From: Patescibacteria group bacterium
GTDB lineage: Bacteria > Patescibacteriota > Patescibacteriia > UBA9934
NCBI GenBank assembly: GCA_041666205.1
Contig: JBAYHI010000002.1
Location: forward strand, 64,725-128,724
Direction of reading: 5' to 3'
Length of the DNA: 64,000 nt
The notes beneath the pieces are model-generated. The model was not told the origin of the DNA and ran no database searches. It worked only from the letters and a program-made list of their open reading frames with translations. Position 1 is the stretch's first letter. Each line of letters starts with the position of its first letter. Made by a program: the position numbers and the translations under genes. Below are positions 7,246 to 63,946 of the stretch, in pieces.

Positions 7246-8388
7246 TTATTTTTCTTTCTTTTCCGGAAGGAGTTTCATGGCAAGCCCAGCTGCAACGGAA
7301 AAACGTGGCCCGATTTCATCGAGCACTGGTCGCAAACCAGCAGGAACCGCAATGCGTGCCCAGGGGTCGCCAATATAAACGTTGATATTGAGAGCCTCGG
7401 TCAAGAACGGATCAATGTATGGGAGCCGTGCTGACCCGCCTGTGAGAATGATTTTTTCAACCGTATTGTGCTCGTGAAAATCTTGCGCACCAAAAAGTTC
7501 TAGTGAATATCGGATCTCGTGCAGAATCGGCATCATGGCGTCTTTAAGAACTTGCGGAACATCGGCATTTGTTGCAGACGCCAAATCAACTTTCATTTGT
7601 TCTGCTTCCGCCATGGTGACACCGGTTTGTTTGGCAAGCATGCTCGTAATTACTCCGCCGCCTGTTTTAATACTGCGGTGCAAATACGGAATCCCCTCAT
7701 ACACAATCGTGATATTGGTGCGCTCGTAACCGATATCCACAATCATGACGCGCGCCTTATCGTTGCCAATAAGCGAGCGAATAAGCGCAAACGCCTCGGT
7801 TTCAAGCGAGACCAGTTCAATTTTTGCTAATTTGAAAATTTCCAAATACTTCCCCACCAATTCTTTTGGCGCGCCAGAAACCAACACACGAATATGCTTG
7901 GATTCCTGCGGAGGCGGCGGGAGGGCTAGCGCTTGCGCCTTTTTATCTTCCACAATTGGTTTTGGAAGCAATTGCTTATCAATCACGAGCGAATCCAAAA
8001 TCATGTTCTCAATTGGTTGCGGTAAGAGCTTGCGCACCTGCGCTTCAATCATGGGCTTCAAATTTTCCTTGGCGTCTTTTGGCTGTGGGATCGTGATAAT
8101 GGCGTGAAAAACATGCTGGCTGGGAAGCGACGCATTTGCGCGCATGGATTTCATGCCCGATTCTTTATGAATGCGAAGTAAAATCTCCGCACCTTTTTTT
8201 GGATCATCCAATAGCGACCCGGTCCAAGTGTCGAAATTTTTGATTTGCGAATATCCGTATGTGGCAAGCCGTACTTTTCCGGATTCCGGGATAAGCTCCA
8301 CGGCTTTGATCCCGCCCGCACCAACGTCAACGCCAATTAAGCCCGGCGATCGTGATTCTTTTTTGCCGAAGAGTCCCATATGCGTCAA
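7246..8388 (-). CDS. pilM: type IV pilus assembly protein PilM (actin-like ATPase)
   Basis: N-terminal LIGVDVGAGGIKAVEL phosphate-1 motif, 380 aa. Confidence 0.8.
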   Translation of the reverse strand: MTHMGLFGKKESRSPGLIGVDVGAGGIKAVELIPESGKVRLATYGYSQIKNFDTWTGSLLDDPKKGAEILLRIHKESGMKSMRANASLPSQHVFHAIITIPQPKDAKENLKPMIEAQVRKLLPQPIENMILDSLVIDKQLLPKPIVEDKKAQALALPPPPQESKHIRVLVSGAPKELVGKYLEIFKLAKIELVSLETEAFALIRSLIGNDKARVMIVDIGYERTNITIVYEGIPYLHRSIKTGGGVITSMLAKQTGVTMAEAEQMKVDLASATNADVPQVLKDAMMPILHEIRYSLELFGAQDFHEHNTVEKIILTGGSARLPYIDPFLTEALNINVYIGDPWARIAVPAGLRPVLDEIGPRFSVAAGLAMKLLPEKKEK

Positions 8389-17928: not shown

Positions 17929-18054
17929 ATGCACATCTCGGAACTACTGAATTTCATTGCGGGCGACCCCATGCTCGTGGTGGTCACCGTCTTCTTTGTC
18001 ATCGCACTCGCTGTCGCCGGCTTCTGCACGTTTTACCTCTTCAGGAGCAGGTAA
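17929..18054 (+). CDS. small hydrophobic peptide 1 (41 aa, single TM)
   Basis: MHISELLNFIAGDPMLVVVTVFFVIALAVAGFCTFYLFRSR; GGAG SD site; TTGACA box at about 17850. Followed by hairpin terminator 18079-18115 (CCGCCAACCAC-CTC-GTGGTCGGCGG plus T-tract). GC-rich. Below the track's length cutoff. Confidence 0.35.
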   Translation: MHISELLNFIAGDPMLVVVTVFFVIALAVAGFCTFYLFRSR

Positions 18055-18177: not shown

Positions 18178-18303
18178 ATGTCGTTTCTGCACGAGATTCC
18201 TGGATTCATCAACCACGGCGAATGGGTCTTCTACTTGGCACTCGTCGTCGTTGTTCTCGGCCTCATCTTCGGAGCAGTGCCACGTCAACTCATCGACGAG
18301 TGA
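18178..18303 (+). CDS. small hydrophobic peptide 2 (41 aa, single TM)
   Basis: MSFLHEIPGFINHGEWVFYLALVVVVLGLIFGAVPRQLIDE; GGAGG SD site 5 nt upstream; same size and architecture as peptide 1. Confidence 0.35.
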   Translation: MSFLHEIPGFINHGEWVFYLALVVVVLGLIFGAVPRQLIDE

Positions 18304-18406: not shown

Positions 18407-20932
18407 TTATCGACTCGGTGGAATTTCGGATGCAGGAATGGGTGCCGCATTTGGCACACCCGCGCCAATACCCGATCGCAGAGCAATTTCTTTTTCCACA
18501 ATTTCTTTTGACTTGCCGTATTTGAGGCGCGACATTTCCTTGAGCGCTTCCGCAAGTTTTGGATTTGGCTGATCAGGCGTGCCAACTTTGAGCGTGAATG
18601 GTTTCAACTGTGCCATGTCCACGACGATTTTTGCATTCCAGGTGTAATTATCCGTATTCATCAAATCATACGCACCAAAGGTTGGCTCAAATACTTTCGT
18701 AAATACCTCTGCATCTTCCGGACCAATACGCGCCACAAACATATTCCCGACGTTTCCTAGCACGGCATCGCGAATTTGCGTATCGTTATTTTTCACGAGC
18801 TGGCCCATGTACTGGTGCGCAAGCGTGAGGTTCAAGCGATACTTTCGAGCCTCAGACAAAATCGTGGCAATTGAGGGCGTAATAAAGTTTTGGAACTCAT
18901 CGATATAGAGGAAGAAATCACGACGCTGATCTTCTGGGAGTTCCGCACGCGAAAACGCGGCCATCTGCAATTTTGCAACCATGATGAGCCCGAGCAAGTT
19001 TGCGTTCACCTCACCTGTTTTTCCTTTTGACAAGTTCACAAGCAAAATCTTTCCTTCGTCCATGATCTGTCGGAAATCAAACGCAGATTTTGATTGCCCA
19101 ATGATATTTCGAATCATTTCGTTTTCCACAAATCGCCCAACTTTCGAAACCAAGTACCCCATCATTTCCGACTTGTGATAATCCGACGTCTTGGCCATTT
19201 CATCTTTCCAAAAACTCTGCACAACCGGATCAGTCACTTTAGCAACCCATTTTGCCTGGAAGGCGTCGTCTGCAATCATCCGCGGGATTTCGGCAATGGT
19301 TCCCAAATCATTCTGATCCGCCATGAGCGTGAGCATATAATTGCGCATGCTGTGCTCAAACATTGGGCCGATCATTTCTGGCGGGAATAACATGTAGAAA
19401 ATCGAGATCATTTCCTGCACAGCAAAATCTTTCATGCTCTCATTGGGTGCCTCGAGCATATTAAGACCCATCGGGCGATCGGTGTCGGACGGACAAAAAT
19501 AAATCACGTCGTCAATACGCTCTTTTGGAATCGTGCCCAAAATATCGTCCACCAAATCGCCGTGTGGATCGATTACGCAAACGCCTTTGCCCGCACGGAT
19601 ATCCTGCACGGCCATATAGCGCAAAAACCACGATTTCCCCGAACCGGTTTTTCCAATGAGATATGCATGGCGCTGACGATCTTTTTCCTTGATAAAAATT
19701 TCCGTGCGCTTCCCACGATAATCATTGTGACCCAAATGCAGCCCTTCGGTTGGCATGCCGGCTGGCGCCGGAGCCACACGTGCAAGCATCCAACGAATCG
19801 TTGGCGTTTCGGTTGTTGGGAGTGGTAAATGCCACAAGCTTGCCATTTCTTCGGTATTCAAAATACAGCGATGCTTCTCACTGAAATGACGGAAGATAAA
19901 ACTGCGAATGAGTTTTGCTTTTTGCGATGGAATCGCTTTTGCAAATGCATTCCCGAATTCATAAATATTGTATTGCGCAAACGCCTGCAAAATTTGGTTG
20001 AGGTTTGCTTGCGCCATATCAGCACTTTGCGAGGAAGAAATAAGACGGATATTCACTTCCATTCCCGCCTTACTGATTTTGTTTTCAATGCGTTTCACCA
20101 TTTCCTGCTCCCCTTGCGACATTTGGCGCACTTGCGGTTGTTGCTGTAATTCCTCAGGTTTTTTCGGGGCTTTTCCCCAAGCGAGCGATAGCCATCCTCC
20201 GCCTTCTTTTGAACCGCCTTTTGCTTCTTTATAGCTCATGCCCTTGTGCATGTTCGTTGCAATCTTTTGACCAGTCGATCGCCACCCCGATCCAGCAGGA
20301 CGCACAATATATTGCACAGCCATGCCATCGCCTTCGGAGACTTTAGAGAGCGCATTTGTCAGACCATTCAATGGATCAGATTCTGATTCCTTATACGTCT
20401 TGATTGGGAGCACGGCTTCTTTTTTGAGAGTAACATAGCCTCCCAAAATCGTGCCGGTTGGATGAAAAATATTATAATCTGGCACGGGTTGAGCCATGGC
20501 ATCGGGATATTGGGCATTGAGTTGTTGCTCTACAAATTGCTGCAAATATTCCGGCACCGTGAGGTAAAACGTGATGAGTTTTTGATGCGCCACCATTTCG
20601 AGCGCGATCTGATCGGTTCGCCCAAAGAGCCACGCATGCAATCCTTTTTGCGTTGGCAATCCCCCGATTGCCGCATAAAACGTTTCAGCAATCGAAATAC
20701 GCTCTTGTAATTTTTGCGTTCCCCCATCGCTTTTTGCTTCCTCTTCGGAAATAAACTTTGGCACGGTCACCATAAGGGTGACGTGCTTATTTTTGCCGTT
20801 TTGCATGGGAGGTTGACTGTGCAAAATTGCACGAAGCCCCCATAAAAATGCCACGAGAAGCCCGCCCAATACAACAAACAGAAGTACAAGGCTCAAGAGC
20901 GTATCAATTTCACCTAATCCAAATACGTTCAT
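18407..20932 (-). CDS. TraD/TrwB-type coupling-protein-like ATPase fused to a large N-terminal membrane-anchored domain (841 aa)
   Basis: N-terminal TM helix, roughly 400-aa domain homologous to ORF 38925..40517, then Walker A HAYLIGKTGSGKS, VIDPHGD motif, Walker B LYIDEFQNF, AHQYMGQL. Paralog of 37032..38921. Confidence 0.6.
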   Translation of the reverse strand: MNVFGLGEIDTLLSLVLLFVVLGGLLVAFLWGLRAILHSQPPMQNGKNKHVTLMVTVPKFISEEEAKSDGGTQKLQERISIAETFYAAIGGLPTQKGLHAWLFGRTDQIALEMVAHQKLITFYLTVPEYLQQFVEQQLNAQYPDAMAQPVPDYNIFHPTGTILGGYVTLKKEAVLPIKTYKESESDPLNGLTNALSKVSEGDGMAVQYIVRPAGSGWRSTGQKIATNMHKGMSYKEAKGGSKEGGGWLSLAWGKAPKKPEELQQQPQVRQMSQGEQEMVKRIENKISKAGMEVNIRLISSSQSADMAQANLNQILQAFAQYNIYEFGNAFAKAIPSQKAKLIRSFIFRHFSEKHRCILNTEEMASLWHLPLPTTETPTIRWMLARVAPAPAGMPTEGLHLGHNDYRGKRTEIFIKEKDRQRHAYLIGKTGSGKSWFLRYMAVQDIRAGKGVCVIDPHGDLVDDILGTIPKERIDDVIYFCPSDTDRPMGLNMLEAPNESMKDFAVQEMISIFYMLFPPEMIGPMFEHSMRNYMLTLMADQNDLGTIAEIPRMIADDAFQAKWVAKVTDPVVQSFWKDEMAKTSDYHKSEMMGYLVSKVGRFVENEMIRNIIGQSKSAFDFRQIMDEGKILLVNLSKGKTGEVNANLLGLIMVAKLQMAAFSRAELPEDQRRDFFLYIDEFQNFITPSIATILSEARKYRLNLTLAHQYMGQLVKNNDTQIRDAVLGNVGNMFVARIGPEDAEVFTKVFEPTFGAYDLMNTDNYTWNAKIVVDMAQLKPFTLKVGTPDQPNPKLAEALKEMSRLKYGKSKEIVEKEIALRSGIGAGVPNAAPIPASEIPPSR

Positions 20933-21441
20933 ACAAGCGCATTATCAACACGATGCGTTTCTTGTTCGAAACGCTCCATAATCGTGTCGGTTTTAATTTT
21001 CGCTTCCTGCTCTAAGAAAAATTTATTGACCCCAGGAATTAACTGAAGCCATTCAATAATGAGTTTCAATACTTTTTGCACCTGCATCTTGCCTTGAATC
21101 ATCATGACGTGGATGGTTTGTGCAACTTCCTCACCTTTTGCGCGAAATGCCGCCTTGCGATCGTCGGGGAGCGACAAATACATATCCGTGAGGTCAGACG
21201 ATAGAATTTCTTCAATATCTTTTACGAGCAAATCCTTGGGTGGAAGTGTTGCAACCGGAAGTTGTGGAGCAACCTGCGGAACTTCGGCAGGTTTTTCTTG
21301 CACAGGTTCTTGCGGTTCTGATTGCACTTCTGGTGCTTCTGCACTGGGTCCCGTCTCGGTACTGAGTTCTGGAACCTCAAATAGCTCCTCTCCACCTTCG
21401 GGAAGCGGGGTGAGATCTTTTTTCTCCGTCATGTCGGTCAT
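20929..21441 (-). CDS. hypothetical acidic Pro/Glu-rich protein, translationally coupled to the 841-aa ATPase
   Basis: 170 aa; N-terminal low-complexity PEV/PQ repeats, C-terminal helical domain; stop overlaps the downstream start (ATGA). Confidence 0.4.
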   Translation of the reverse strand: MTDMTEKKDLTPLPEGGEELFEVPELSTETGPSAEAPEVQSEPQEPVQEKPAEVPQVAPQLPVATLPPKDLLVKDIEEILSSDLTDMYLSLPDDRKAAFRAKGEEVAQTIHVMMIQGKMQVQKVLKLIIEWLQLIPGVNKFFLEQEAKIKTDTIMERFEQETHRVDNALV

Positions 21442-36111: not shown

Positions 36112-36186
36112 AAAAAAGAGATAGTATAACCTACCCCCTAGGGTATAGGGTGAACCTCAATCTTGCAAGCCCCGTTGTGGATATAA

Positions 36187-36236
36187 AAAAGCACCCTGCC
36201 GATTGTGGCGGGGCGCTTTTGTTTTTACTTGAAAAA
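36187..36236. terminator. bidirectional terminator, copy 2 (overlaps uppP stop)
   Basis: AAAAGCACCCTGCCGATTGTGGCGGGGCGCTTTTGTTTTT, 2 mismatches versus the copy at 32099. Confidence 0.55.
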
Positions 36237-37028
36237 TGTCAGCACGAGAATCAGACCTCCGAGCGCAATGCGATACCAGGCAAACCACTTGAAACTATAC
36301 TTCTCGATAAATTTAAAAAGGAATCGAATTGCAACCATTCCCGATGCTGCTGCGGCAATAAACCCAACAATGAGGAGTGGCCACGGAGTCATGAATCCAT
36401 TTTGAATCACGTCGACCGTTGCAAATGTACTTGCGGCAAGAATTGCTGGAATCGAAAGAAGGAATGAAAACTTTGCCACAGTATTGCGCCCGAGCCCCAT
36501 AAATAATCCCGCGGTCATGGTAATCCCCGATCGCGACGTGCCCGGCAATAGCGAAAGCGCTTGCGCAAATCCCATCACCATCGCCTGTTTCCACGTGGTG
36601 TGCTCCAAGCCATGTGTGAGTGTTCCCATGCGTGCATGGAACCAATCTGCGATCCACAAAACAATCCCCCAAAAAATCAAATTCGCCGCTACAATATCGA
36701 GCGTACGAATCGCATCCAAATAGGAGTCTGAAATCACAAGGCCCAAAATCATCACCGGAATGGTGGCGCCAAATAATTTCATCGCAAGCTTTGTTTCATC
36801 GGTCATCTTGCGTTTCATGAGTCCAACGGCAATCCCCCGAATTTCCGGCCACAACGAATAGACCACTGCGGTGAGCGTTGCTAAATGCACCATGACGTCA
36901 AAATCATACCCTTGCTCTTTCCACCCAAAAAACTCCGGAAAAATAATGAGATGCCCAGAACTAGAAATTGGCAAGAATTCTGTAATTCCTTGTACGAGCC
37001 CTAACACAACGGCTTGAAAAACATTCAT
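36225..37028 (-). CDS. uppP: undecaprenyl-diphosphate phosphatase
   Basis: BacA signatures EFLPISSSGH and PGTSRSG, 267 aa. Confidence 0.85.
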   Translation of the reverse strand: MNVFQAVVLGLVQGITEFLPISSSGHLIIFPEFFGWKEQGYDFDVMVHLATLTAVVYSLWPEIRGIAVGLMKRKMTDETKLAMKLFGATIPVMILGLVISDSYLDAIRTLDIVAANLIFWGIVLWIADWFHARMGTLTHGLEHTTWKQAMVMGFAQALSLLPGTSRSGITMTAGLFMGLGRNTVAKFSFLLSIPAILAASTFATVDVIQNGFMTPWPLLIVGFIAAAASGMVAIRFLFKFIEKYSFKWFAWYRIALGGLILVLTFFK

Positions 37029-37031
37029 ACA

Positions 37032-38921
37032 TTACGAGTTGAATTGCACAATTTCCCCTGGCTTTGGAGATCCTGCTGCGTGATCACTCCCCGGCGTTTG
37101 AGACGTGGGCGCGCTACTTGTTGGCGTCTTCTTTTTATGACGACGTCGACGCTTACTGCGCTCGGGCGCTTGCGGAGGCACAGTTCCCATTGGCGCTTTT
37201 ATCGGCACCGAAATAGGTACTGCAGGTGCAACCTCCCGCGCCATCTGCGCAGGCTTTTCCATCGCCGGTCGCGCAACAGGAGCGGGTTTTGCACGCTCCG
37301 TTAATTCCGAAAGTGAGGCGCTGCTTGATTCTTCTTTTGTAATAAGTTCCCCATCCATGATTTTTGGAACTTCTGTGATCACCTTCTTTTCTGGTCGAAA
37401 CGGAGCCGGAGATTTCTTTCCTTTTTCACGCTCCTCTTTAATAAGCGGCATGCACTCTTCACAATAAATCGGGCGCGAACGATCGAGCTCTACTGGAATC
37501 GCAAAGGTTTTTCCGCAACGCGTGCAGGTATATTCCTGGCTATATTTTGCTTTCTTCGCCGCTTCTTTTTTATCTTTCACCTCTTTATATTTTTCGTCCA
37601 AATCCACGCCCTCACCAAATCCACTCCAGGTCGCCACATGTTCTTCAATGGACGCGCGATTTCCCGCGTAGCGTTCACGAGATTGCGCCACGACCCGTTC
37701 TTGACTTCCTGTTTTTTGCGCAATCGGTGGAAGGGTGAGCGCGGAAAATGGCGCAGAGGTGACGCCGTCAATCATGAGCTTCAAATAAATTTGGAATTTC
37801 GGCAAATTGATTAAATCCTCCGGCAAAAACCGCGGGGTAAATTCATCCTCCATAAATGTGGCGTCTGGCGAACCAACGCGGAATGTAATGATCGTACCCA
37901 CGTTTCCAAATACGGCATCGCGCACCGACGTATTCCCGCCGTAATCGAGTTGAGAAATATACTGGTGCGCCATGATGAGGTTCAGGCGATATTTACGTGC
38001 TTCAGAAAGAATTGACGCAAAGGATTCAACCGCAAAGTTTTGAAATTCATCAACGTAGAGATAAAAATCTTGACGCTCACTTTCAGGCATATCCACACGC
38101 TCCATGGCAGCCATGGAAAGCTTGGTAACAATCATCCCTCCGAGCAAACGCATGGCATCTTCTCCAATACGTCCTTTTGCCAAATTCACAATAAGAATTT
38201 TCTGATCATCCATGATGCTGCGCAAATCGAGCGTGGATTTTGCTTGCGCCACAATATTTCGCATGACCGAGGAAGAAAGGAATTGTCCAACTTTATTTTG
38301 AATAGGCGCCACGGCCTCGGACGCAAACTTGCTTTCGTATGATGCAAATTCCGTCACCCAGAATTGTTTGACGATCGGATCTTTCACGTTTGCAATAATT
38401 TCTTTTCGATACGCGGCGTCCGATAGCATGCGGTTAATCCCCAAGAGTGTGGTATTGGGCGTATCCATGAGCGCCAAAATCGTATTATTGAGAATATATT
38501 CCATGCGTGCGCTCCACACATTTTCCCAGATTTTCTTGAATACACTCATCATGCCCGCAGCCACCAAATGCTTCTGATCGGGTCGAACTGCTTCCAAAAT
38601 ATTGAATCCAATTGGATACTCAAAATCCGCCGGGTTAAAATACACCACGTCGTTTATGCGCCACGACGGAATATAGTCGAGGAGTTTCTCTGCGGTATCG
38701 CCGTGCGGGTCAATATAGCAGGCGCCGTGGCCAGCATAGATGTCAGAGAGAATCATGTTCTCAAGGAGTGTAGTTTTCCCCATGCCGGTTTTTCCAATCA
38801 CATAGACGTGCCGGCGACGATCATCGGTTTTAATGCCAAATTTATGCATCTGATTGCGAAAATTCGTTTTCGCAAAATAGATGATGTCTTTTTCGTGATC
38901 GTGGGGATAGCGCATTGGCAT
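37032..38921 (-). CDS. TraD/TrwB-type coupling-protein-like ATPase (629 aa) with C-terminal zinc ribbon and low-complexity tail
   Basis: Walker A HVYVIGKTGMGKT, CYIDPHGD, Walker B LYVDEFQNF, AHQYISQL. CxxC...CxxC near the C-terminus. Paralog of the ATPase half of 18407..20932. Confidence 0.6.
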   Translation of the reverse strand: MPMRYPHDHEKDIIYFAKTNFRNQMHKFGIKTDDRRRHVYVIGKTGMGKTTLLENMILSDIYAGHGACYIDPHGDTAEKLLDYIPSWRINDVVYFNPADFEYPIGFNILEAVRPDQKHLVAAGMMSVFKKIWENVWSARMEYILNNTILALMDTPNTTLLGINRMLSDAAYRKEIIANVKDPIVKQFWVTEFASYESKFASEAVAPIQNKVGQFLSSSVMRNIVAQAKSTLDLRSIMDDQKILIVNLAKGRIGEDAMRLLGGMIVTKLSMAAMERVDMPESERQDFYLYVDEFQNFAVESFASILSEARKYRLNLIMAHQYISQLDYGGNTSVRDAVFGNVGTIITFRVGSPDATFMEDEFTPRFLPEDLINLPKFQIYLKLMIDGVTSAPFSALTLPPIAQKTGSQERVVAQSRERYAGNRASIEEHVATWSGFGEGVDLDEKYKEVKDKKEAAKKAKYSQEYTCTRCGKTFAIPVELDRSRPIYCEECMPLIKEEREKGKKSPAPFRPEKKVITEVPKIMDGELITKEESSSASLSELTERAKPAPVARPAMEKPAQMAREVAPAVPISVPIKAPMGTVPPQAPERSKRRRRHKKKTPTSSAPTSQTPGSDHAAGSPKPGEIVQFNS

Positions 38922-38924
38922 AGA

Positions 38925-40517
38925 CTAAATCGGGAGATTTGTAGGCACATCGTTTTTGCCATCGATTGTTTCGGGCGATGCATCAAAGCCCGGTGGAAGT
39001 GGCGCCGGCATTCCGGCACGGGGCCGGTACAAATCGTCTGGCGTTGACGCAACCGGCATGACGCGGTCATAGGAGCGATCATCGCCTTGAAGCGAACGCG
39101 TTGGCGCGGAAAGTTTTGGCACCACGAGTGGCCCTGTATCTTTTGGTAAACTCTTTTTTGTGACGAGCCCATCGGTTGTAGAGCGATCCAAATTCGGCAA
39201 ATCAGGTTCATTGGCCCCGGCCCAATTGAGCTCAGACGGCGCTTCTGAACGGCGCGAAGAAAGTCGCGCAAGCACGGGCGTGCGCGCATCGCCCGCTGGA
39301 AAATGAAATAGCGTTGCGAGCTCGGCCGAGTTCATATAAAACACGCTCGAGGACGCAAACGGATGACGCTTCTTGTAGCGCTTCACCAAATTGCGTTGTT
39401 TTCCAGGAAGTTGCCACTCCATCCAGAAATAATCGTCTTTTGGCGTAGAGGCCTCGTGAATTCCAATCGAGTTTAGCGTGAGATCTCCAAATTGGTGGAA
39501 ATAGCCCTTCATCATGGAGGCAATCGTTCCCTTGCGGAATAATTCTTTTTTTGCAAAGTACACGAATCGGATTTTCGTTTGCCAACCGAGTTTCGTAATT
39601 TTCAAACGCACGGCTTCCATTTGATCACGCTCTTCTGGCGTGATTTTGAACATCTTAAAATCATCGGCTTTCTTTTCCGGCGATGCACCCCCAAGCGTCA
39701 ACCCGGTGAGTTGACTCACAAATTCCCCGGGAATCCACCCGATTCCGCTCGAGAAAAACCCAGACTTTGGAGCATCAACATCGCGACCGTATAATTTTTC
39801 AATGAATTTCTTCCCTTCCTTGGCCCAATCCTGCTCATCGGGTTGTTTGATAATGAGCTGAATCATGAGATTTTCCCCAGGGCGCATTTTTCCCATCATT
39901 TCCAAAAGCGGAAGAATCGTATCTTTGTACCGATTATCTTTTTCCCCCATGTGCTCGAATTGCTCATACGTGCGAATCGGCAAAAAATTCTTTTTCTTAA
40001 GAATCATTTCCGTTCCCCAGCAATCCCATTCTTCATTTGGCCATTCATCGGGAATAATGCCGATATAATCTTCCACCTCGGTCATCTGAGCCTCGGGATA
40101 TTGCGCATAGAGCGCCGCTTCCAAGAGGTCGCGATATTTTGATTGCACCCGCATATAATATTGCAGGTTGCCACCAATTGACACAATCTCCAATGAGAAA
40201 AACGCTTGAAATTTTCCGAGCAGCCATTCCTCACGCCACGTAATAGCAGATTTACTTCCTGCAATATTATTGAAAAAATTCTCCATGCCTTTTGGCGTTT
40301 GTACGGCATCGAGTGGAACCGTAACCGCAAGCAAGTGCCATTTCAAATTATCCCAATATTCGCCTTGCTTATAATCTTGCCAGACTTCCACAAGACCCCA
40401 CACAATAACGCCAAAAATTGGCACCCATCCAACCATAAACAATGCATGAGCTGCCATGATTTCGAGTGGCGTTGTCGCAAAATAGTGCGAAACAATTGCG
40501 GACAATTCAGAAATCAT
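38925..40517 (-). CDS. membrane-anchored protein homologous to the N-domain of the 841-aa fusion
   Basis: N-terminal TM helix. Blocks conserved with 18407..20932 (LAVTVPLD/LMVTVPKF, AQYPEA/AQYPDA, FLPIRTYE/VLPIKTYK, ELATLFHFP/EMASLWHLP). Ends 3 nt before the ATPase gene. Confidence 0.5.
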   Translation of the reverse strand: MISELSAIVSHYFATTPLEIMAAHALFMVGWVPIFGVIVWGLVEVWQDYKQGEYWDNLKWHLLAVTVPLDAVQTPKGMENFFNNIAGSKSAITWREEWLLGKFQAFFSLEIVSIGGNLQYYMRVQSKYRDLLEAALYAQYPEAQMTEVEDYIGIIPDEWPNEEWDCWGTEMILKKKNFLPIRTYEQFEHMGEKDNRYKDTILPLLEMMGKMRPGENLMIQLIIKQPDEQDWAKEGKKFIEKLYGRDVDAPKSGFFSSGIGWIPGEFVSQLTGLTLGGASPEKKADDFKMFKITPEERDQMEAVRLKITKLGWQTKIRFVYFAKKELFRKGTIASMMKGYFHQFGDLTLNSIGIHEASTPKDDYFWMEWQLPGKQRNLVKRYKKRHPFASSSVFYMNSAELATLFHFPAGDARTPVLARLSSRRSEAPSELNWAGANEPDLPNLDRSTTDGLVTKKSLPKDTGPLVVPKLSAPTRSLQGDDRSYDRVMPVASTPDDLYRPRAGMPAPLPPGFDASPETIDGKNDVPTNLPI

Positions 40518-40578
40518 ACGTTGTTGGTATTATAGCACAAGAAAACAAAAGCGCTGAGAATTTCTTCTCAGCGTCTTC

Positions 40579-40662
40579 GCCGTACGGGCGGGGTCTCCCC
40601 GCCCGTCGTCGGGTCGGGGAACCCGACCCCTACAGCGTAAGGGCATGGCGTGCCATGCCTTT
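40579..40662. repeat. hairpin-pair intergenic repeat, copy B
   Basis: GTACGGGCGGGGTCTCCCCGCCCG...GGGTCGGGGAACCCGACCC-CTACAG-CGTAAGGGCATGGCGTGCCATGCCTTTAC between secF and the N-domain gene. Confidence 0.55.
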
Positions 40663-41569
40663 ACTTTTTCTGCCACTTCTCCCAAAGCACCAAGAGCGGA
40701 CTTGCGAGGAAAATGGATGAATAGGCGCCGCTCGTGATTCCAATGATGAGCGCGAGCACAAATGGGCGTGTGGATTCCCCACCGAAAATGAAGATGGCAA
40801 TCAAGGTAAGGAGCGTCGTGAGCGTGGTATTGATGGATCGCGCAAATGTTTGCACAATACTTGAGTTCACAATCTCGCCAAAGGAAACGTCAGTGTGGCG
40901 ATTCTTATGCAGATTTTCACGGGTGCGATCGAATACAACAATCGTATCGTTAATGGAGTACCCCATGATGGTGAGAATTGCTGCAATGAATGCGGTATCG
41001 ATTTGATAGCCCCAATAATGCCCAAGCACGGCGAATACTCCAACTGGCAAAAGAATGTCGTGCAAGCCTGCAAGAATCGTGAGCAATCCGTATTTCCACG
41101 AGGCAACTGGCTTTGAAACATGTCGAAATGCCCAGGCAATATAGGCAATGATGAGAACCGAAAGCACAATTACGGCAACGATCGATTTCTTTTTAAGCTC
41201 TTCTCCAAATGTCGGACCAATGGCTTCGTAGCGGAGTTCTTGCAAATCCTCACCATAAGTTACCTGCAAGGAATCCAAAAGCAAGCTGTGCTCTTCTTGT
41301 GTGAGCGTTCGTGTACGAATGAGCATGGTACCACTGCTGCTATTTTGAATCGTGGATTCATACCCAAAGGCCTGGATATTTGCCTGAAGATCAGAAATCT
41401 CAATTGCCGATGCAGGTTTGATTTCCAAAAGACTACCTCCGGTAAAATCGATCCCGAAATTGAGTCCGAAAATCGCAATTGCCACAATCGAACCAACCAT
41501 AAGCGCACCCGATAGGATGAGCCACACCCTTGAAAGCGAAATGAAAGGAAATTTTTCAACAATCGACAT
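40661..41569 (-). CDS. secF: protein translocase subunit SecF
   Basis: 302 aa, SecF periplasmic loop and 6 TM helices, immediately downstream of secD. Confidence 0.85.
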   Translation of the reverse strand: MSIVEKFPFISLSRVWLILSGALMVGSIVAIAIFGLNFGIDFTGGSLLEIKPASAIEISDLQANIQAFGYESTIQNSSSGTMLIRTRTLTQEEHSLLLDSLQVTYGEDLQELRYEAIGPTFGEELKKKSIVAVIVLSVLIIAYIAWAFRHVSKPVASWKYGLLTILAGLHDILLPVGVFAVLGHYWGYQIDTAFIAAILTIMGYSINDTIVVFDRTRENLHKNRHTDVSFGEIVNSSIVQTFARSINTTLTTLLTLIAIFIFGGESTRPFVLALIIGITSGAYSSIFLASPLLVLWEKWQKK

Positions 41570-41575
41570 ATGCTG

Positions 41576-43621
41576 TTATTTAGGTTGGCGAACGCCGTAA
41601 AGCCATGTTTTTCGCAAGAAGGACCAAATAATTGACCACTTCAAGAACACGCGTGTGACCGTCATGGCCGTAAGCATAGAAAGAAGGACACCGATACTCA
41701 GCGTGATTGCAAATCCTTTAATGGAACTCGTGCTCAAGAAGAACAAGACGGCTGCCGCGATGAGCGTTGTGAGGTTTCCATCGCGAATAGAAGTCCACGC
41801 GCGGCGGAATCCTTCGTCAATCGCTGTATTCAAATCGCGTCCGCTACGTAGCTCTTCTTTCATGCGTTCAAAAATCAGCACGTTCGCGTCCACAGCCATA
41901 CCCATAGAAAGCACAAACCCCGCAATACCAGAAAGCGTCATGGTAACGCCAAGCCATTTGTAGAGCGCGAGGTTCAATGCCGCATACACAGCAAGAGCCA
42001 AGACTGCTAACAATCCTGCATATCGGTAATACGCAATCATGAAGAGCGCCACGAGTGCAAACCCAACGAGTGCAGCTTTAATACTCAAATCAAGCGATGC
42101 TTGCCCGAGCGTTGGCCCAACGGTTTGTTGATTGAGAAGCGTGACAGGAACTGGAAGTGCACCAGCATTTAATCGTTGAACCAAAAGTTTTGATTCTGTG
42201 AGTGTGAAATTTCCTGTAATCGATGCGGTTCCGCCATAAATCGCTTCTTGCACGGTTGGCGTTGAAATGGCGCTTCCATCCAAGAAAATGCCAATCATCT
42301 TTCCAACATTTGATGCAGTGAGTTCTTCAAATTTCGTTCCGCCTTCGCTTGAGAAATTCAAGACAACATATGGTGCCCCGGTATTTGGATCAAATGCAAC
42401 CGCTGCATTTTTCAAATCTTTTCCGGAAAGCGTTGTATTGGTCCACGGATTTGTTTGAATCACGTCCGATGCAGTTGTGAGCGGCATTTTTACGATCGCG
42501 ATTTCATACGCTGGCACAGCTTTTGTGTCGCGTCGATAAATGATGTGATAGCCGAAGTCTGTTTCCACCACATCAGAAATCTGCCCATCGGTGAGAGCGA
42601 ACGCTGCAGTTTCGAATGGTTCAACCGTCATCCCCTTTTTGATCCAATCCAAATCCCCACCGGTTGGAGCCGACCCAGTATCTTCCGATACTTCGGTTGC
42701 TTTTTCCGAAAAATTCTTGGTGGTGAGTTGTGTTTTCAAATCCTGCGCCAACGTGAGTGCCTCGGCCTTGGTACGCGTATTTGTGCACCCCTGGGATTCA
42801 GCGTGACAAATAAGAATATGCGAAAGCTGTGCCGAATCTTCAGATTTTGTGGAAAGGAAATTCACGACAAGCAAATCGCTTGCATCCTCATAGACAAGAG
42901 GAATGATTCCGGTCTTATATTTCTTTGTAGCGATTTTTGATGCTAATGCCGTATACATGCCATCGTCGGCATTGATCCAACCAAAATAGCCGTTATTCCA
43001 TTTTGTGGTTTCATCGGTTGACGCCTCTTTTGCGAGCGTGGAAAAATCTTCTCCGTTTTGCGCGCGCTCCAAGATTGCGTCAGCGGCAGCTCGTTCTGTT
43101 TCTTGTGCCGCGTCAATTTGTACTTGTTGTTCTGCGGTTGGTTCGGTTTGGAGTTCTGATTCTGGCGTTTGTGTTTTGAATTCCAAAATTGGCGTTTCCC
43201 CAATCATTTTAATTGCGCTCTCAACATCAAAGACGCCAGCAAGTTCAACAATAATCCGATAGTGTCCACCGGAAATATTGGTCTGAACCACTGGCTCGGC
43301 AATCCCAAACGCGTTCACACGACGTTCAATGACTTCACGTGCACCTTCAAGCGCTGTGGCTTTGTCGGCTTCGGCGATCGCGGACATATCGGCCTCGTAG
43401 ACAAGATGCGTTCCACCCTGCAAATCAAGCCCGAGCTTGAATGGATTCTCCGAAAGCGTTGGCCCAAAGCCAATTGCACTCACCGCTTTATTCCATGGAC
43501 CCGGGTATGCAACCGATCCCATGAGCAATGAAACAATGATGATGCCAAGGACCGAAAGGTGCAGATTGCGTCGTAGGTGCGTTTTTTGTTGATTCATACC
43601 AAAAAAAGTTTGTGACGCCAT
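41576..43621 (-). CDS. secD: protein translocase subunit SecD with inserted parvulin-type PPIase domains
   Basis: SecD motif LGLDLQGG and C-terminal 6-TM region. Periplasmic region contains a clear PpiC/parvulin domain (GGDLDWIKKGMTVEPFETAAF...DFGYHIIY) and a degenerate second one. Start at MASQTFFG or MNQQKTH. Confidence 0.8.
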   Translation of the reverse strand: MASQTFFGMNQQKTHLRRNLHLSVLGIIIVSLLMGSVAYPGPWNKAVSAIGFGPTLSENPFKLGLDLQGGTHLVYEADMSAIAEADKATALEGAREVIERRVNAFGIAEPVVQTNISGGHYRIIVELAGVFDVESAIKMIGETPILEFKTQTPESELQTEPTAEQQVQIDAAQETERAAADAILERAQNGEDFSTLAKEASTDETTKWNNGYFGWINADDGMYTALASKIATKKYKTGIIPLVYEDASDLLVVNFLSTKSEDSAQLSHILICHAESQGCTNTRTKAEALTLAQDLKTQLTTKNFSEKATEVSEDTGSAPTGGDLDWIKKGMTVEPFETAAFALTDGQISDVVETDFGYHIIYRRDTKAVPAYEIAIVKMPLTTASDVIQTNPWTNTTLSGKDLKNAAVAFDPNTGAPYVVLNFSSEGGTKFEELTASNVGKMIGIFLDGSAISTPTVQEAIYGGTASITGNFTLTESKLLVQRLNAGALPVPVTLLNQQTVGPTLGQASLDLSIKAALVGFALVALFMIAYYRYAGLLAVLALAVYAALNLALYKWLGVTMTLSGIAGFVLSMGMAVDANVLIFERMKEELRSGRDLNTAIDEGFRRAWTSIRDGNLTTLIAAAVLFFLSTSSIKGFAITLSIGVLLSMLTAMTVTRVFLKWSIIWSFLRKTWLYGVRQPK

Positions 43622-43653
43622 TCTAGTCGACTGCCATAAATTTGCAAGGGGTC

Positions 43654-44010
43654 CTATTCGTTTGATTTTTTGAACGTCACGCGGAATGACGGGTACCACT
43701 TCTCGTTATAATCATCAACAATTTCGACTTCTTTATTTTCCACGTACATATTGAGCGCCAAATCCGCCAGGAGTTCGAGATCGGTATCGATATCGACTTT
43801 GAGCTCTTCCATGCGCGCAATATCGGCTTTAGAAATTGCTTTCACTTCATTTTCAAGTGCCTTGCGATCGCCTCGCAACGCTTTGAGTTGATCTTCGATT
43901 TCTTTGAATTTTGGACTGGCTTCAAGTTCGCTATGGATTATTTTTGCGATCTCGGCTTTTTCCTTTTTATTTTTGGCAAGACGTTTATAGACTTCTTGTA
44001 GTGTTGGCAT
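43654..44010 (-). CDS. hypothetical coiled-coil protein
   Basis: 118-aa Lys/Glu-rich helical ORF, no motif. Confidence 0.35.
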   Translation of the reverse strand: MPTLQEVYKRLAKNKKEKAEIAKIIHSELEASPKFKEIEDQLKALRGDRKALENEVKAISKADIARMEELKVDIDTDLELLADLALNMYVENKEVEIVDDYNEKWYPSFRVTFKKSNE

Positions 44011-59328: not shown

Positions 59329-59399
59329 ACGGGCGGACACATGGGGCCGCCCCTACAGAATCATCAATCACGTAGGGCAAGGCGCGCCTTGCCCTTACG
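59329..59399. repeat. hairpin-pair intergenic repeat, copy C
   Basis: ACGGGCGGACACATGGGGCCGCCC-CTACAGAATC...CGTAGGGCAAGGCGCGCCTTGCCCTTACG between the 58081..59322 ORF and folD. Confidence 0.55.
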
Positions 59400-63295: not shown

Positions 63296-63895
63296 ATGCG
63301 CGAATTCCCCGCTCCCATTCACAAGGCAATGGCAGCGCTTTCCAAGCTGCCTGGAGTGGGGCCAAAAACCGCACTGCGATATGTGTTTGCGCTTTTAGAT
63401 TTGCCCTTGCGTGATCGAGAAATCCTCGCGCAAAGCGTATTGGAACTTGGCGGAATCAAGCGTTGTACAACCTGCTTTTCTTTTTCCGAAGAACCGACCT
63501 GCGAAATTTGCAGTGACCAGCGCCGGGAGATAAATAAACTCTGCGTGGTTGCAGAGTCGCGCGATATTTCCACCATCGAAGCCACGGGCGCCTACCATGG
63601 GCGCTATTTTGTGCTGGGGGGACGCCTCAATCCCATTGAAGGACAAACACCCGAGACGCTGAACGTGCGGCGCCTACTTGATCGCATCGAAGCCCACCCC
63701 GAGGTGCAGGAAGTGATTCTTGCCTTCTCGCCCGATGTGCACGGCGAAACCACCATTTTATTTTTAGCTCGACAACTCAAATCCATGAACCGACGTACCA
63801 CTCGATTGGCGCGTGGGCTTCCCATGGGCGCTGATATTGAATACACCGATGAGGTAACCTTGGGCGACGCCATGACCGGCCGACGTGATGCGTAG
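63296..63895 (+). CDS. recR: recombination protein RecR
   Basis: HhH (LPGVGPKTALR), C4 zinc finger (CTTC...CEIC), Toprim. Confidence 0.9.
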   Translation: MREFPAPIHKAMAALSKLPGVGPKTALRYVFALLDLPLRDREILAQSVLELGGIKRCTTCFSFSEEPTCEICSDQRREINKLCVVAESRDISTIEATGAYHGRYFVLGGRLNPIEGQTPETLNVRRLLDRIEAHPEVQEVILAFSPDVHGETTILFLARQLKSMNRRTTRLARGLPMGADIEYTDEVTLGDAMTGRRDA

Positions 63896-63946
63896 GGGCA
63901 TGGCGTGCCCGCTCGATTCGTCGTGGGGACGTAGCGTGCTACGTCC
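63891..63946. repeat. partial hairpin-pair repeat, copy D
   Basis: CGTAGGGGCATGGCGTGCCC...GGACGTAGCGTGCTACGTCC shares the GGGCATGGCGTGCC core with copy B. Confidence 0.3.

What the first reader, a model, noticed from the sequence alone, without database searches (positions are those of the whole stretch)
37032..40517. Split paralog of the same system: N-domain gene followed 3 nt later by a coupling-protein-like ATPase with zinc ribbon
ORF 38925..40517 aligns block-by-block with the N-terminal half of the 841-aa protein. ORF 37032..38921 aligns with its ATPase half. This is a fusion/fission pair within one genome. The standalone ATPase additionally carries a CxxC...CxxC ribbon and a Pro/Ala/Lys-rich tail. 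Gene fission/fusion plus paralogy argues that the two parts function together. The locus is bounded by hairpin-pair repeat copy B and uppP.
Basis: seen in the sequence. Interest (0 to 1): 0.65.

Follow-up and report, generated by a model that had tools for sequence, protein, structure and literature searches.

The report
Split membrane-anchored coupling-type ATPase of Patescibacteria
Two adjacent genes in an uncultured Patescibacteria (Uhrbacteria-like) genome encode the membrane-anchor half and the motor half of a type IV coupling-protein-like ATPase that the same genome also encodes as one fused protein; the arrangement is old and conserved, its anchor half looks like the front half of the secretion ATPase VirB4, and its job is unknown.

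Summary
ORF 37032..38921 (-) is 41% identical over 429 aa (E 8e-111) to the C-terminal half of the 841-aa ORF 18407..20932 (-). ORF 38925..40517 (-) is 22% identical over 362 aa (E 6e-20) to its N-terminal half. The motor half belongs to the VirD4/TrwB coupling-protein (T4CP) class. The N-half is Pfam DUF8128 (PF26449), one TM helix plus a cytoplasmic alpha/beta domain. Its AlphaFold model matches only TrwK/VirB4 among solved structures, but profile comparison finds no sequence similarity to VirB4.

The split is not an accident. In 75 of 76 informative genomes the DUF8128 gene is directly followed by the ATPase gene, mostly in the order secD-secF-DUF8128-ATPase-uppP. All 69 complete split ATPases carry a CxxC-x17-CxxC ribbon and a basic tail; none of 120 fused homologues does. 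Both paralogues co-occur in many genomes.

No relaxase or VirB4 lies in the window. A 2025 survey already counted these proteins as orphan T4CP homologues (about two per Patescibacteria genome, rarely near virB4). The most likely reading is a chromosomal, membrane-anchored hexameric translocation ATPase in two versions. Substrate and partner channel are not established. I class it as a new variant of a known kind, of moderate interest.

The parts
38925..40517 (-). Gene for the 530-aa DUF8128 (PF26449) membrane-anchor protein, the split N-half
   Evidence: ORF; 22% identity, E 6e-20 to residues 83-397 of the 841-aa protein; exact protein carries PF26449; AF2 pLDDT 82; Foldseek top 12 hits are all TrwK/VirB4.
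40386..40460 (-). Single N-terminal transmembrane helix of the DUF8128 protein (residues about 20-44)
   Evidence: Hydropathy scan; helices 2-57 in the model; coordinates.
38928..39032 (-). Conserved C-terminal tail motif of the split N-protein (..PGMPAPLPPG..NLP); possible docking peptide (inference)
   Evidence: Nearly invariant columns A505 P506 P508 P509 G510 P525 L528 P529 in the 80-sequence alignment A1. The motif is absent from the 425-aa Moraniibacteria-type versions.
37032..38921 (-). Gene for the 629-aa soluble T4CP-class (VirD4/TrwB-like) ATPase, the split C-half
   Evidence: 41% identity, E 8e-111 to residues 398-826 of the 841-aa protein; PF10412 54.7 bits, PF02534 34.1, PF12696 28.4, all above gathering score; phmmer to TrwB 8.7e-6, DotL 2e-5; no TM segment.
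38772..38795 (-). Walker A motif (GKTGMGKT)
   Evidence: present in 69/69 split orthologues.
38043..38063 (-). Walker B motif (YLYVDEF)
   Evidence: found in 67/69 orthologues by pattern.
37452..37526 (-). CxxC-x17-CxxC zinc ribbon (residues 466-490)
   Evidence: PF23477 23.8 bits, TIGR04272 24.2 bits, both below cut-off. Exact spacing is conserved in 69/69 split ATPases and in 0/120 fused homologues.
37035..37451 (-). Pro/Ala/Lys-rich basic tail with a polybasic patch and a C-terminal PGExxxF-type motif
   Evidence: in orthologues the tail is 45-365 aa with median net charge +9; the polybasic patch and terminal motif recur.
36225..37028 (-). uppP (BacA), last gene of the same operon (3-nt gap after the ATPase stop)
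   Evidence: BacA 1.3e-76; TAA tgt ATG; follows the ATPase gene in most Uhrbacteria-type loci.
40529..40573 (-). Terminator-like hairpin after secF (40552-40573) and a TGnTATAAT -10 box (40529-40534) a few bases before the DUF8128 start codon
   Evidence: Pattern matches only; no experimental evidence.
36116..36139 (-). Terminator-like hairpin after uppP, the likely operon end
19742..20932 (-). DUF8128 half (residues 1-397, TM helix at about 11-36) of the fused 841-aa paralogue
18407..19741 (-). T4CP-class ATPase half (residues 398-841) of the fused paralogue; no zinc ribbon
   Evidence: (hhalign 96% probability to TrwB over 272 columns).
20929..21441 (-). Conserved 170-aa ORF whose stop overlaps the start of the fused gene (ATGA); likely a partner of the fused system
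   Evidence: overlap. An equivalent ORF sits in the same position in L081 and L082. 42-43% identity with a conserved C-terminal 100 aa. No Pfam or PADLOC hit.

Best explanation
The locus is a three-gene operon (DUF8128 protein, ATPase, uppP). Its first two genes encode, in two pieces, the same machine that the 841-aa gene encodes in one piece: a Patescibacteria-specific, membrane-anchored P-loop translocation ATPase of the VirD4/TrwB (T4CP) class.

Shown: the N-piece has one TM helix followed by a roughly 390-aa cytoplasmic alpha/beta domain (DUF8128). The fold of that domain matches the N-terminal domain of VirB4. The C-piece is a soluble T4CP-type nucleotide-binding domain with intact Walker A and B motifs and a helical insertion. 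In the split version only, it also carries a Zn ribbon and a long basic tail.

Inferred: the DUF8128 protein recruits and organises the ATPase at the membrane, as the VirB4 NTD does for VirB4 and as pIP501 TraI is proposed to do for the TMD-less T4CP TraJ. The ATPase works as a hexamer that uses ATP to feed a polymer through or to a membrane channel. In the split paralogue the Zn ribbon and polybasic tail grip a nucleic-acid or nucleoprotein substrate.

Both paralogues are chromosomal, sit among housekeeping genes, lack a relaxase, and are conserved across the lineage. They therefore probably serve a core cellular function rather than plasmid conjugation. Whether they dock on the separately encoded VirB3-VirB4-TrsD system of these bacteria or act on their own is open.
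For: - Homology of both halves.
- T4CP class: Pfam hits above gathering scores; hhalign gives 96% probability to TrwB over 272 columns; phmmer finds TrwB and DotL in the PDB. Against a 14-sequence VirB4 profile only the Walker A region matches.
- Fold: the N-protein model (pLDDT 82) hits only TrwK/VirB4 chains at E<=2.3e-3, and no TrwB, HerA or FtsK. The fused model (pLDDT 90.5, pTM 0.77) aligns to TrwK over 925-975 columns (E 1e-15) but to TrwB over about 445 columns (E 4e-12).
- Topology: one TM helix per N-half and none in the split ATPase. Basic residues follow the TM helix in the fused protein, which places the N-terminus outside and the rest inside.
- Working together: the ATPase gene directly follows the DUF8128 gene in 75 of 76 informative loci at 28-73% N-domain identity. 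Junctions are tight.
- The split-specific Zn ribbon and basic tail are present in 69/69 split ATPases and 0/120 fused homologues. The CxxC-x17-CxxC domain binds zinc in M. mazei proteins (PMC12704099).
- Core function rather than conjugation: both contexts are housekeeping genes. In the survey, T4CP homologues occur in 2,918 of 3,035 Patescibacteria genomes against 2,417 with VirB4, and only 148 of 5,713 lie near virB4 (PMC12102498). Table S3 of that paper lists two t4cp1 hits far from the VirB3-VirB4-TrsD cluster in a Uhrbacteria genome.
- Family size: 3,144 clusters at 50% identity.
Against: - No experiment exists for any member.
- The Zn-ribbon HMM scores are below the curated cut-offs.
- Hexamer formation, the N-protein/ATPase contact and the substrate are all inferred. 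A basic tail could bind anionic lipid or a protein instead of nucleic acid.
- One Parcubacteria locus (L079) has a DUF8128 gene without an adjacent ATPase gene.
- The T4CP homologue of Southlakia epibionticum was reported as non-essential (PMC12102498), which does not favour an indispensable role. Paralogue redundancy could explain that result.
Confidence: 0.6

Rival explanations
1. Both paralogues are ordinary coupling proteins of the chromosomal Patescibacteria T4SS (the VirB3-VirB4-TrsD-VirB6-pilin system), encoded away from it. They deliver different substrates, protein or DNA, to that channel. DUF8128 simply replaces the usual two-helix membrane domain as the part that docks on the T4SS.
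For: T4CP-class ATPase. T4CP genes are often encoded far from virB4 (PMC12102498). Uhrbacteria genomes in Table S3 carry a VirB3-VirB4-TrsD cluster plus two distant t4cp1 hits. A VirB4-NTD-like fold would be a plausible adaptor to VirB3/VirB8-like partners (PMC12857230).
Against: T4CP homologues are found in more genomes (2,918) than VirB4 (2,417), so at least about 500 assemblies have them without a detected VirB4. At least one Uhrbacteria assembly is listed with a T4CP and no VirB4, although MAGs are incomplete. No relaxase is present and synteny is with secDF/uppP and cysS/dnaX. In S. epibionticum the T4SS genes are essential but the T4CP homologue is not.
Confidence: 0.3
2. The system acts on its own as an FtsK/TraB-like DNA pump. 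It would either segregate or clear the chromosome at division, or move DNA across the single membrane (uptake or export) without any T4SS.
For: It belongs to the FtsK-HerA superfamily, and HerA and TrwB are among the fold hits. Streptomyces TraB is a precedent for a T4CP-like pump working alone (PMC12857230). The split paralogue has a Zn ribbon and a polybasic tail. The family is near-universal in Patescibacteria.
Against: There is no FtsK gamma or other DNA-recognition domain, and the Pfam FtsK_SpoIIIE match covers only the P-loop. A single TM helix cannot itself form a DNA pore. Table S3 also lists t4cp2 (TcpA/FtsK-like) hits in these genomes, so a separate FtsK-like protein may exist. ComEC-dependent competence is already known in this phylum (PMC12857230).
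Confidence: 0.15
3. The ATPase is part of an anti-phage defence system (MADS mad8-like or HerA-type).
For: The PADLOC mad8 profile matches the ATPase at 9e-23 (split) and 3.5e-16 (fused), with weak HerA and DndH hits. The DndH C-domain is among the fold hits.
Against: Only the shared ATPase core matches. No other MADS, Dnd or HerA-partner gene is present. Synteny with housekeeping genes is stable across 70+ species, unlike defence islands. The family is near-universal in the phylum.
Confidence: 0.03
4. The split is a recent frameshift, a nonsense mutation or an assembly error in a formerly fused gene.
For: Only the 3-nt spacing, which could look like a point disruption.
Against: The same two-gene arrangement is present in 75 of 76 informative loci from different species. 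The top 150 family representatives are all of split size, 409-691 aa. The split N-protein has its own conserved C-terminal tail, and the split ATPase has its own N-terminus and Zn ribbon. Split ATPases are 57-82% identical to each other but only 36-43% identical to the fused paralogue.
Confidence: 0.01

Closest known systems
Type IV coupling proteins (VirD4 / TrwB / TraD / TraG / DotL family)
   Same: The P-loop nucleotide-binding domain with a helical insertion is shared. Pfam TrwB_AAD_bind, T4SS-DNA_transf and TraG-D_C all score above threshold. hhalign gives 96% probability to TrwB. Foldseek TM-score normalised to TrwB is 0.6-0.65. The proteins were already counted as t4cp1 hits in Patescibacteria.
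   Different: There is no two-helix N-terminal membrane domain. Instead there is one TM helix plus the roughly 390-aa DUF8128 domain, which in one paralogue is a separate protein. No relaxase or T4SS genes lie nearby. The split form adds a Zn ribbon and a basic tail in place of the acidic or TraM-binding C-termini of plasmid T4CPs.
VirB4 (TrwK of R388), including VirB3-VirB4 fusions and the pGO1 TrsD + TrsE pair
   Same: The overall architecture matches: membrane anchor, then a roughly 400-aa N-terminal domain, then a FtsK/HerA-type ATPase. Foldseek ranks TrwK first for both the N-protein and the fused protein. VirB3-VirB4 fusions of 912-917 aa exist on IncX plasmids. TrsD is a stand-alone VirB4-N-terminal-like protein encoded next to VirB4 (PMC12102498). 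The fused and split states therefore have parallels in the VirB4 family.
   Different: There is no sequence-level similarity to the VirB4 NTD. The ATPase half matches a VirB4 profile only around Walker A. No VirB3, VirB6 or VirB8 neighbours are present. Uhrbacteria genomes carry a separate genuine VirB3-VirB4-TrsD cluster.
pIP501 TraJ (T4CP without a membrane domain) with TraI as proposed membrane anchor
   Same: A soluble T4CP-class ATPase depends on a separately encoded membrane protein (PMC12857230).
   Different: TraI is a small two-TM protein, not a DUF8128 protein, and the pair sits in a conjugative plasmid tra operon with a relaxase. Homology of TraI to DUF8128 was not tested; what I state about TraI comes from the review only.
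Pfam DUF8128 (PF26449)
   Same: Both N-halves are members according to precomputed hits.
   Different: This is a domain of unknown function. I found no paper mentioning it, and my local Pfam copy lacks the model.

Membership tests
T4CP (VirD4/TrwB family) | FtsK/HerA-type P-loop domain with sequence similarity to T4CP profiles and intact Walker A and B motifs | tested here: met
   PF10412 scores 54.7 bits (cut-off 20.5), PF02534 34.1 (20.1) and PF12696 28.4 (22). hhalign gives 96% probability to TrwB. phmmer to TrwB gives 8.7e-6. Motifs are located.
T4CP (VirD4/TrwB family) | All-alpha domain inserted in the nucleotide-binding domain | tested here: met
   The fused model has a run of eight helices at residues 498-626 between the Walker A and Walker B strands. 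The TrwB_AAD_bind profile is matched across this region. This rests on a model and a profile, not on an experimental structure.
T4CP (VirD4/TrwB family) | N-terminal membrane domain of two TM helices with a short external loop | tested here: not met
   The fused protein has a single hydrophobic segment followed by a roughly 360-aa soluble domain. The split ATPase has no TM segment.
T4CP (VirD4/TrwB family) | Encoded with a relaxase and/or mating-pair-formation genes | tested here: not met
   No relaxase, VirB4, VirB6 or VirB8 lies among the large ORFs of the 64-kb window. Related loci carry secDF/uppP or cysS/dnaX neighbours.
T4CP (VirD4/TrwB family) | Recruits substrates to a T4SS channel | not testable with these tools
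   This needs genetics or biochemistry.
VirB4 | VirB4-type N-terminal domain | tested here: inconclusive
VirB4 | VirB4-type C-terminal ATPase signature | tested here: not met
   Only 72 columns around Walker A align to a 14-sequence VirB4 profile, at 68% probability. There are no VirB4 Pfam or NCBIfam hits beyond the P-loop.
VirB4 | Adjacent virB3, virB6 or virB8 | tested here: not met
DUF8128 (PF26449) | Match to the Pfam model | tested here: met
   Precomputed hits exist for the exact window proteins P0001 and P0121 and for all 240 listed homologues. The local Pfam copy does not contain the model.
CxxC-x17-CxxC zinc ribbon (TIGR04272 / PF23477) | Two CxxC pairs 17 residues apart that match the model | tested here: inconclusive
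   The spacing is exact and conserved in 69/69 orthologues. HMM scores of 24.2 and 23.8 bits fall below the cut-offs of 36 and 27. Zinc binding cannot be tested here.
MADS defence system (mad8) | mad8-like ATPase together with the other mad genes | tested here: not met
   mad8 matches at 9e-23 but no other defence profile hits in either locus. Neighbours are housekeeping genes.

The most novel reading that the evidence does not exclude
DUF8128-T4CPs are a third, ancient branch of the VirB4/VirD4 ATPase family that keeps a VirB4-like N-terminal domain on a VirD4-like motor. That would imply the common ancestor of VirB4 and the coupling proteins already had this domain and that plasmid T4CPs lost it. 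In Patescibacteria the branch would have become a near-universal housekeeping translocase in two specialised versions, one of which reads a nucleic-acid substrate through a Zn ribbon and basic tail, working independently of conjugation and possibly of the T4SS.
Probability: 0.2. Interest if true: 0.8.

Novelty: new variant of a known kind. Interest (0 to 1): 0.55.

Why it matters
Patescibacteria make up a large share of bacterial diversity. They have tiny genomes, yet almost all keep about two 'orphan' coupling-protein homologues whose role is unknown (PMC12102498). This work shows four things about them:
- they carry a VirB4-NTD-like membrane module (DUF8128);
- they come as a conserved fused/split paralogue pair;
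- only the split one has a Zn ribbon and polybasic tail;
- they sit in housekeeping operons.

These features give concrete handles for experiments: which piece to tag, which tail to delete, and which two genes to knock out together. They also bear on how VirB4 and VirD4 diverged. If the proteins act apart from the T4SS, they would be a new kind of core membrane motor in a major bacterial phylum.

Tried and rejected
1. Sequence-level link between DUF8128 and VirB4. A1 profile against PDB sequences gave no hit at E<=10. A1 against TrwK gave 0.2%. A 118-sequence DUF8128 profile against a 14-sequence VirB4 profile built from R388 and 13 diverse plasmids gave 0.1%. The result is negative, so the VirB4 link rests on fold only.
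3. The local Pfam and NCBIfam scans gave nothing for the N-protein.
4. Defence-system reading: only a mad8/HerA core match, so rejected.
5. Pseudogene or assembly-error reading: rejected by comparative data.
6. 'Hairpin-pair repeat' as a mobile-element boundary: only short hairpin look-alikes exist elsewhere in the window, and the hairpins read as a secF terminator region. Not pursued further.
7. Literature searches for DUF8128 found no paper. Wang et al. 2023 does not mention VirD4 or T4CP in its main text.
8. R388 accession BR000038 is absent from the collection; NC_028464 was used instead.
9. The third homologue search and the third fold search were left unused, because no available library or query would have resolved the open points.


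Full report
**1. The observation**

The window has two adjacent minus-strand ORFs, 38925..40517 (530 aa) and 37032..38921 (629 aa), and an 841-aa ORF at 18407..20932.
- BLASTP aligns the 629-aa protein to residues 398-826 of the 841-aa protein with 41% identity over 429 columns, E 8e-111.
- BLASTP aligns the 530-aa protein to residues 83-397 with 22% identity over 362 columns, E 6e-20.
- Neither alignment lies in low-complexity sequence. The Pro-rich tails of both split proteins are outside the aligned blocks.
- The junction reads TAG tct ATG, a 3-nt spacer.

**2. Organism and setting**

The exact proteins occur in a Patescibacteria MAG on a 252-kb contig, and the closest relatives are Candidatus Uhrbacteria. 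All large ORFs scanned in the 64-kb window are housekeeping genes. They include lepA, mnmA, dnaX, cysS, dnaJ, dnaK, a copper ATPase with csoR, uppP, secDF, secA, ligA, recJ, murB/C-like genes, glyA and dnaB, plus a pilM-like gene. No relaxase, VirB4, VirB6 or VirB8 was found.

The split locus is bracketed by terminator-like hairpins: one after secF (40552-40573) and one after uppP (36116-36139). A TGnTATAAT box lies just before the first start codon. The ATPase stop and the uppP start are 3 nt apart. The unit is therefore DUF8128 gene, ATPase gene, uppP.

**3. What the parts are**

The ATPase halves of both paralogues pass the Pfam gathering thresholds for TrwB_AAD_bind, T4SS-DNA_transf and TraG-D_C.
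- NCBIfam gives only sub-threshold matches to TraD and VirD4-like models.
- phmmer against PDB sequences finds TrwB (8.7e-6) and DotL (2e-5) and no VirB4.
- hhalign of the family alignment gives 96% probability to TrwB over 272 columns.
- Against TrwK alone it gives 4%. Against a 14-sequence VirB4 profile it gives 68%, restricted to 72 columns around Walker A.

The motor therefore belongs to the coupling-protein (T4CP) class, not the VirB4 class. Walker A, Walker B and the AHQ motif are intact in both paralogues and in nearly all homologues.

The N-halves gave no hit in the local Pfam or NCBIfam copies. The homologue database, however, carries a precomputed PF26449 hit for both exact proteins and for all 240 listed relatives, and the family is named DUF8128. 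Each N-half has one hydrophobic helix near its N-terminus, and the split ATPase has none. In the fused protein the residues after the helix are basic. The ATPase must be cytoplasmic, so the topology is N-out, C-in with DUF8128 in the cytoplasm (inference).

**4. Structure**

AlphaFold2 with an 80-sequence alignment gave a confident model of the N-protein: mean pLDDT 82, core above 90, tail disordered. Foldseek against the PDB returned TrwK/VirB4 of plasmid R388 in all twelve top positions, with E 5.6e-5 to 2.3e-3 and probability 0.98-1.0. The next hits, BBE-type oxidases and HemQ, have E of at least 0.02. No TrwB, HerA or FtsK chain appears. The match therefore cannot be to the shared ATPase core and must be to the VirB4-specific N-terminal domain.

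The fused 841-aa protein modelled at pLDDT 90.5 and pTM 0.77. Its best PDB matches are again TrwK, at E 1.3e-15 over 925-975 alignment columns. They rank ahead of TrwB (E 3.8e-12, about 445 columns, TM normalised to TrwB 0.6-0.65), HerA, Cag-beta and DotL.

According to a recent review, the VirB4 NTD dimerises, embeds in the membrane and contacts VirB3 and VirB8 (PMC12857230).

**5. How old and how general the split is**

A scan of one genome per species gave 79 loci.
- In 69 of them a complete T4CP-like gene directly follows the DUF8128 gene.
- In 6 more the ATPase gene follows but is cut by the contig end.
- In 3 the contig ends within or just after the DUF8128 gene.
- One Parcubacteria locus (L079) has an MltG-like gene and mnmA downstream instead.

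That makes 75 of 76 informative loci, at N-domain identities from 73% down to 28%. The order secD-secF-DUF8128-ATPase-uppP holds through the Uhrbacteria-type genomes. More distant ones (30-35% identity) keep secDF upstream at a distance, and the Moraniibacteria-type loci have shorter 425-aa N-proteins.

Split ATPases are 57-82% identical to the window's split ATPase but only 36-43% identical to the fused paralogue. The duplication therefore predates these lineages.

An exhaustive profile search found 3,144 clusters at 50% identity with E<=1e-3 and 981 with E<=1e-30. The best 150 are all of split size, 409-691 aa.

The fused family is conserved at 60-80% identity. It shares at least ten 'longest contig' lengths with the split family. 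One MAG (JABJOE01) is directly seen to carry both: L018 and L081.

The fused gene has its own conserved context. It runs cysS, a roughly 165-175-aa ORF whose stop overlaps the start codon, the fused gene, then dnaX nearby.

**6. What is special about the split paralogue**

Every one of the 69 complete split ATPases has a CxxC-x17-CxxC motif after the ATPase domain. It is followed by a 45-365-aa tail rich in K, R, P and A, with median net charge +9, a polybasic patch and a short PGExxxF-type end. None of the 120 fused homologues has the motif.

The motif matches TIGR04272 and PF23477 below their cut-offs. The same domain type binds zinc in Methanosarcina mazei small proteins (PMC12704099).

The split N-protein in Uhrbacteria also has a roughly 95-aa disordered tail ending in a nearly invariant PGMPAPLPPG...NLP motif. 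This is a candidate docking peptide (inference).

**7. Relation to what is published**

Quinonero-Coronel et al. 2025 (PMC12102498) surveyed 3,035 Patescibacteria genomes.
- They found VirB4 in 2,417 genomes.
- They found 5,713 VirD4-type T4CP homologues in 2,918 genomes, of which only 148 lie near virB4.
- They noted that the T4CP homologue of S. epibionticum is not essential although other T4SS genes are.
- They suggested that the T4CPs may have been exapted.

Their Table S3 lists, for a Uhrbacteria genome, a VirB3-VirB4-TrsD cluster plus two t4cp1 hits far from it. For another Uhrbacteria assembly it lists a T4CP without VirB4. That is the pattern seen here.

I found no mention of DUF8128, of the VirB4-like N-domain, of the fused/split pair or of the Zn ribbon.

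Split or fused states have parallels elsewhere:
- VirB3-VirB4 fusions on IncX plasmids;
- stand-alone TrsD next to VirB4;
- TraI proposed to anchor the TMD-less T4CP TraJ of pIP501.

**8. Mechanism and rivals**

Best-supported reading: a membrane-anchored T4CP-class hexameric ATPase whose membrane-proximal module is DUF8128. It is made either as one chain or as two co-expressed chains. The split version adds a Zn ribbon and basic tail that most likely bind a nucleic-acid or nucleoprotein substrate.
- Shown: homology, domain order, motifs, fold matches, conserved adjacency, paralogue co-occurrence and genomic context.
- Inferred: hexamer formation, the N-protein/ATPase contact, the substrate and the partner channel.

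The main rival is that both are ordinary coupling proteins working in trans with the chromosomal T4SS. The wider distribution of T4CPs than of VirB4, and the non-essentiality report, argue against it, but MAG incompleteness and paralogue redundancy weaken both arguments. An autonomous FtsK/TraB-like DNA pump is possible, but there is no pore-forming membrane domain. A defence role and a recent gene break are rejected.

**9. Verdict**

The feature is real, conserved and only partly described in the literature. Its components are catalogued (DUF8128, T4CP homologue), but their architecture, the paralogue pair and the VirB4-like fold are not discussed in anything I could find. I rate it a new variant of a known kind with interest about 0.55.

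Noticed in passing
window 17929-18054 and 18178-18303 (+ strand): Two 41-aa ORFs, each a single hydrophobic helix (MHISELLNFIAGDPMLVVVTVFFVIALAVAGFCTFYLFRSR and MSFLHEIPGFINHGEWVFYLALVVVVLGLIFGAVPRQLIDE). Each is followed by a GC hairpin and a T run. They lie in the 540-nt gap between dnaX and the 841-aa gene.
   Followed up: no
window 20929-21441 (-): A 170-aa ORF with an acidic, Pro-rich N-half and a conserved C-terminal 100 aa. Its stop overlaps the start of the fused T4CP gene (ATGA). It is conserved in the same position in two other genomes (L081, L082) and has no Pfam or PADLOC hit.
   Followed up: partly
window 41576-43699 (-): SecD carries PpiC-type peptidyl-prolyl isomerase (rotamase) domain matches at residues 283-390, inserted ahead of the P1 head subdomain. 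This is an unusual SecD-PPIase fusion.
   Followed up: no
window 40637-40664, 63890-63909, 59376-59399: A GC-rich hairpin (core GGCATGGCGTGCCATGCC) downstream of secF has 20-24-nt look-alikes downstream of two other genes.
   Followed up: partly
L004, L006, L008, L010-L013 and others; L050: Many public records that carry this Uhrbacteria-type secDF-DUF8128-ATPase-uppP locus are titled 'uncultured Gammaproteobacteria bacterium', and one is titled 'Candidatus Kapaibacterium sp.'. The titles look wrong for these small-genome CPR contigs.
   Followed up: no
L079 2057-3301: In one Parcubacteria contig the DUF8128 gene (28% identity) is not followed by an ATPase gene. An MltG/YceG-like gene and mnmA follow instead. 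It is the only exception among 76 informative loci.
   Followed up: partly
window 7246-8388 (-): A PilM-like gene (type IV pilus assembly, 4.4e-34) with small ORFs downstream that may be pilN/pilO-like. It lies about 10 kb from the fused T4CP gene.
   Followed up: no
window 37032-38921 (-) and 18407-20932 (-): The PADLOC profile mad8 (MADS defence system) matches the T4CP-like ATPase core at 9e-23 and 3.5e-16. mad8 may therefore itself be a T4CP/HerA-class ATPase.
   Followed up: no
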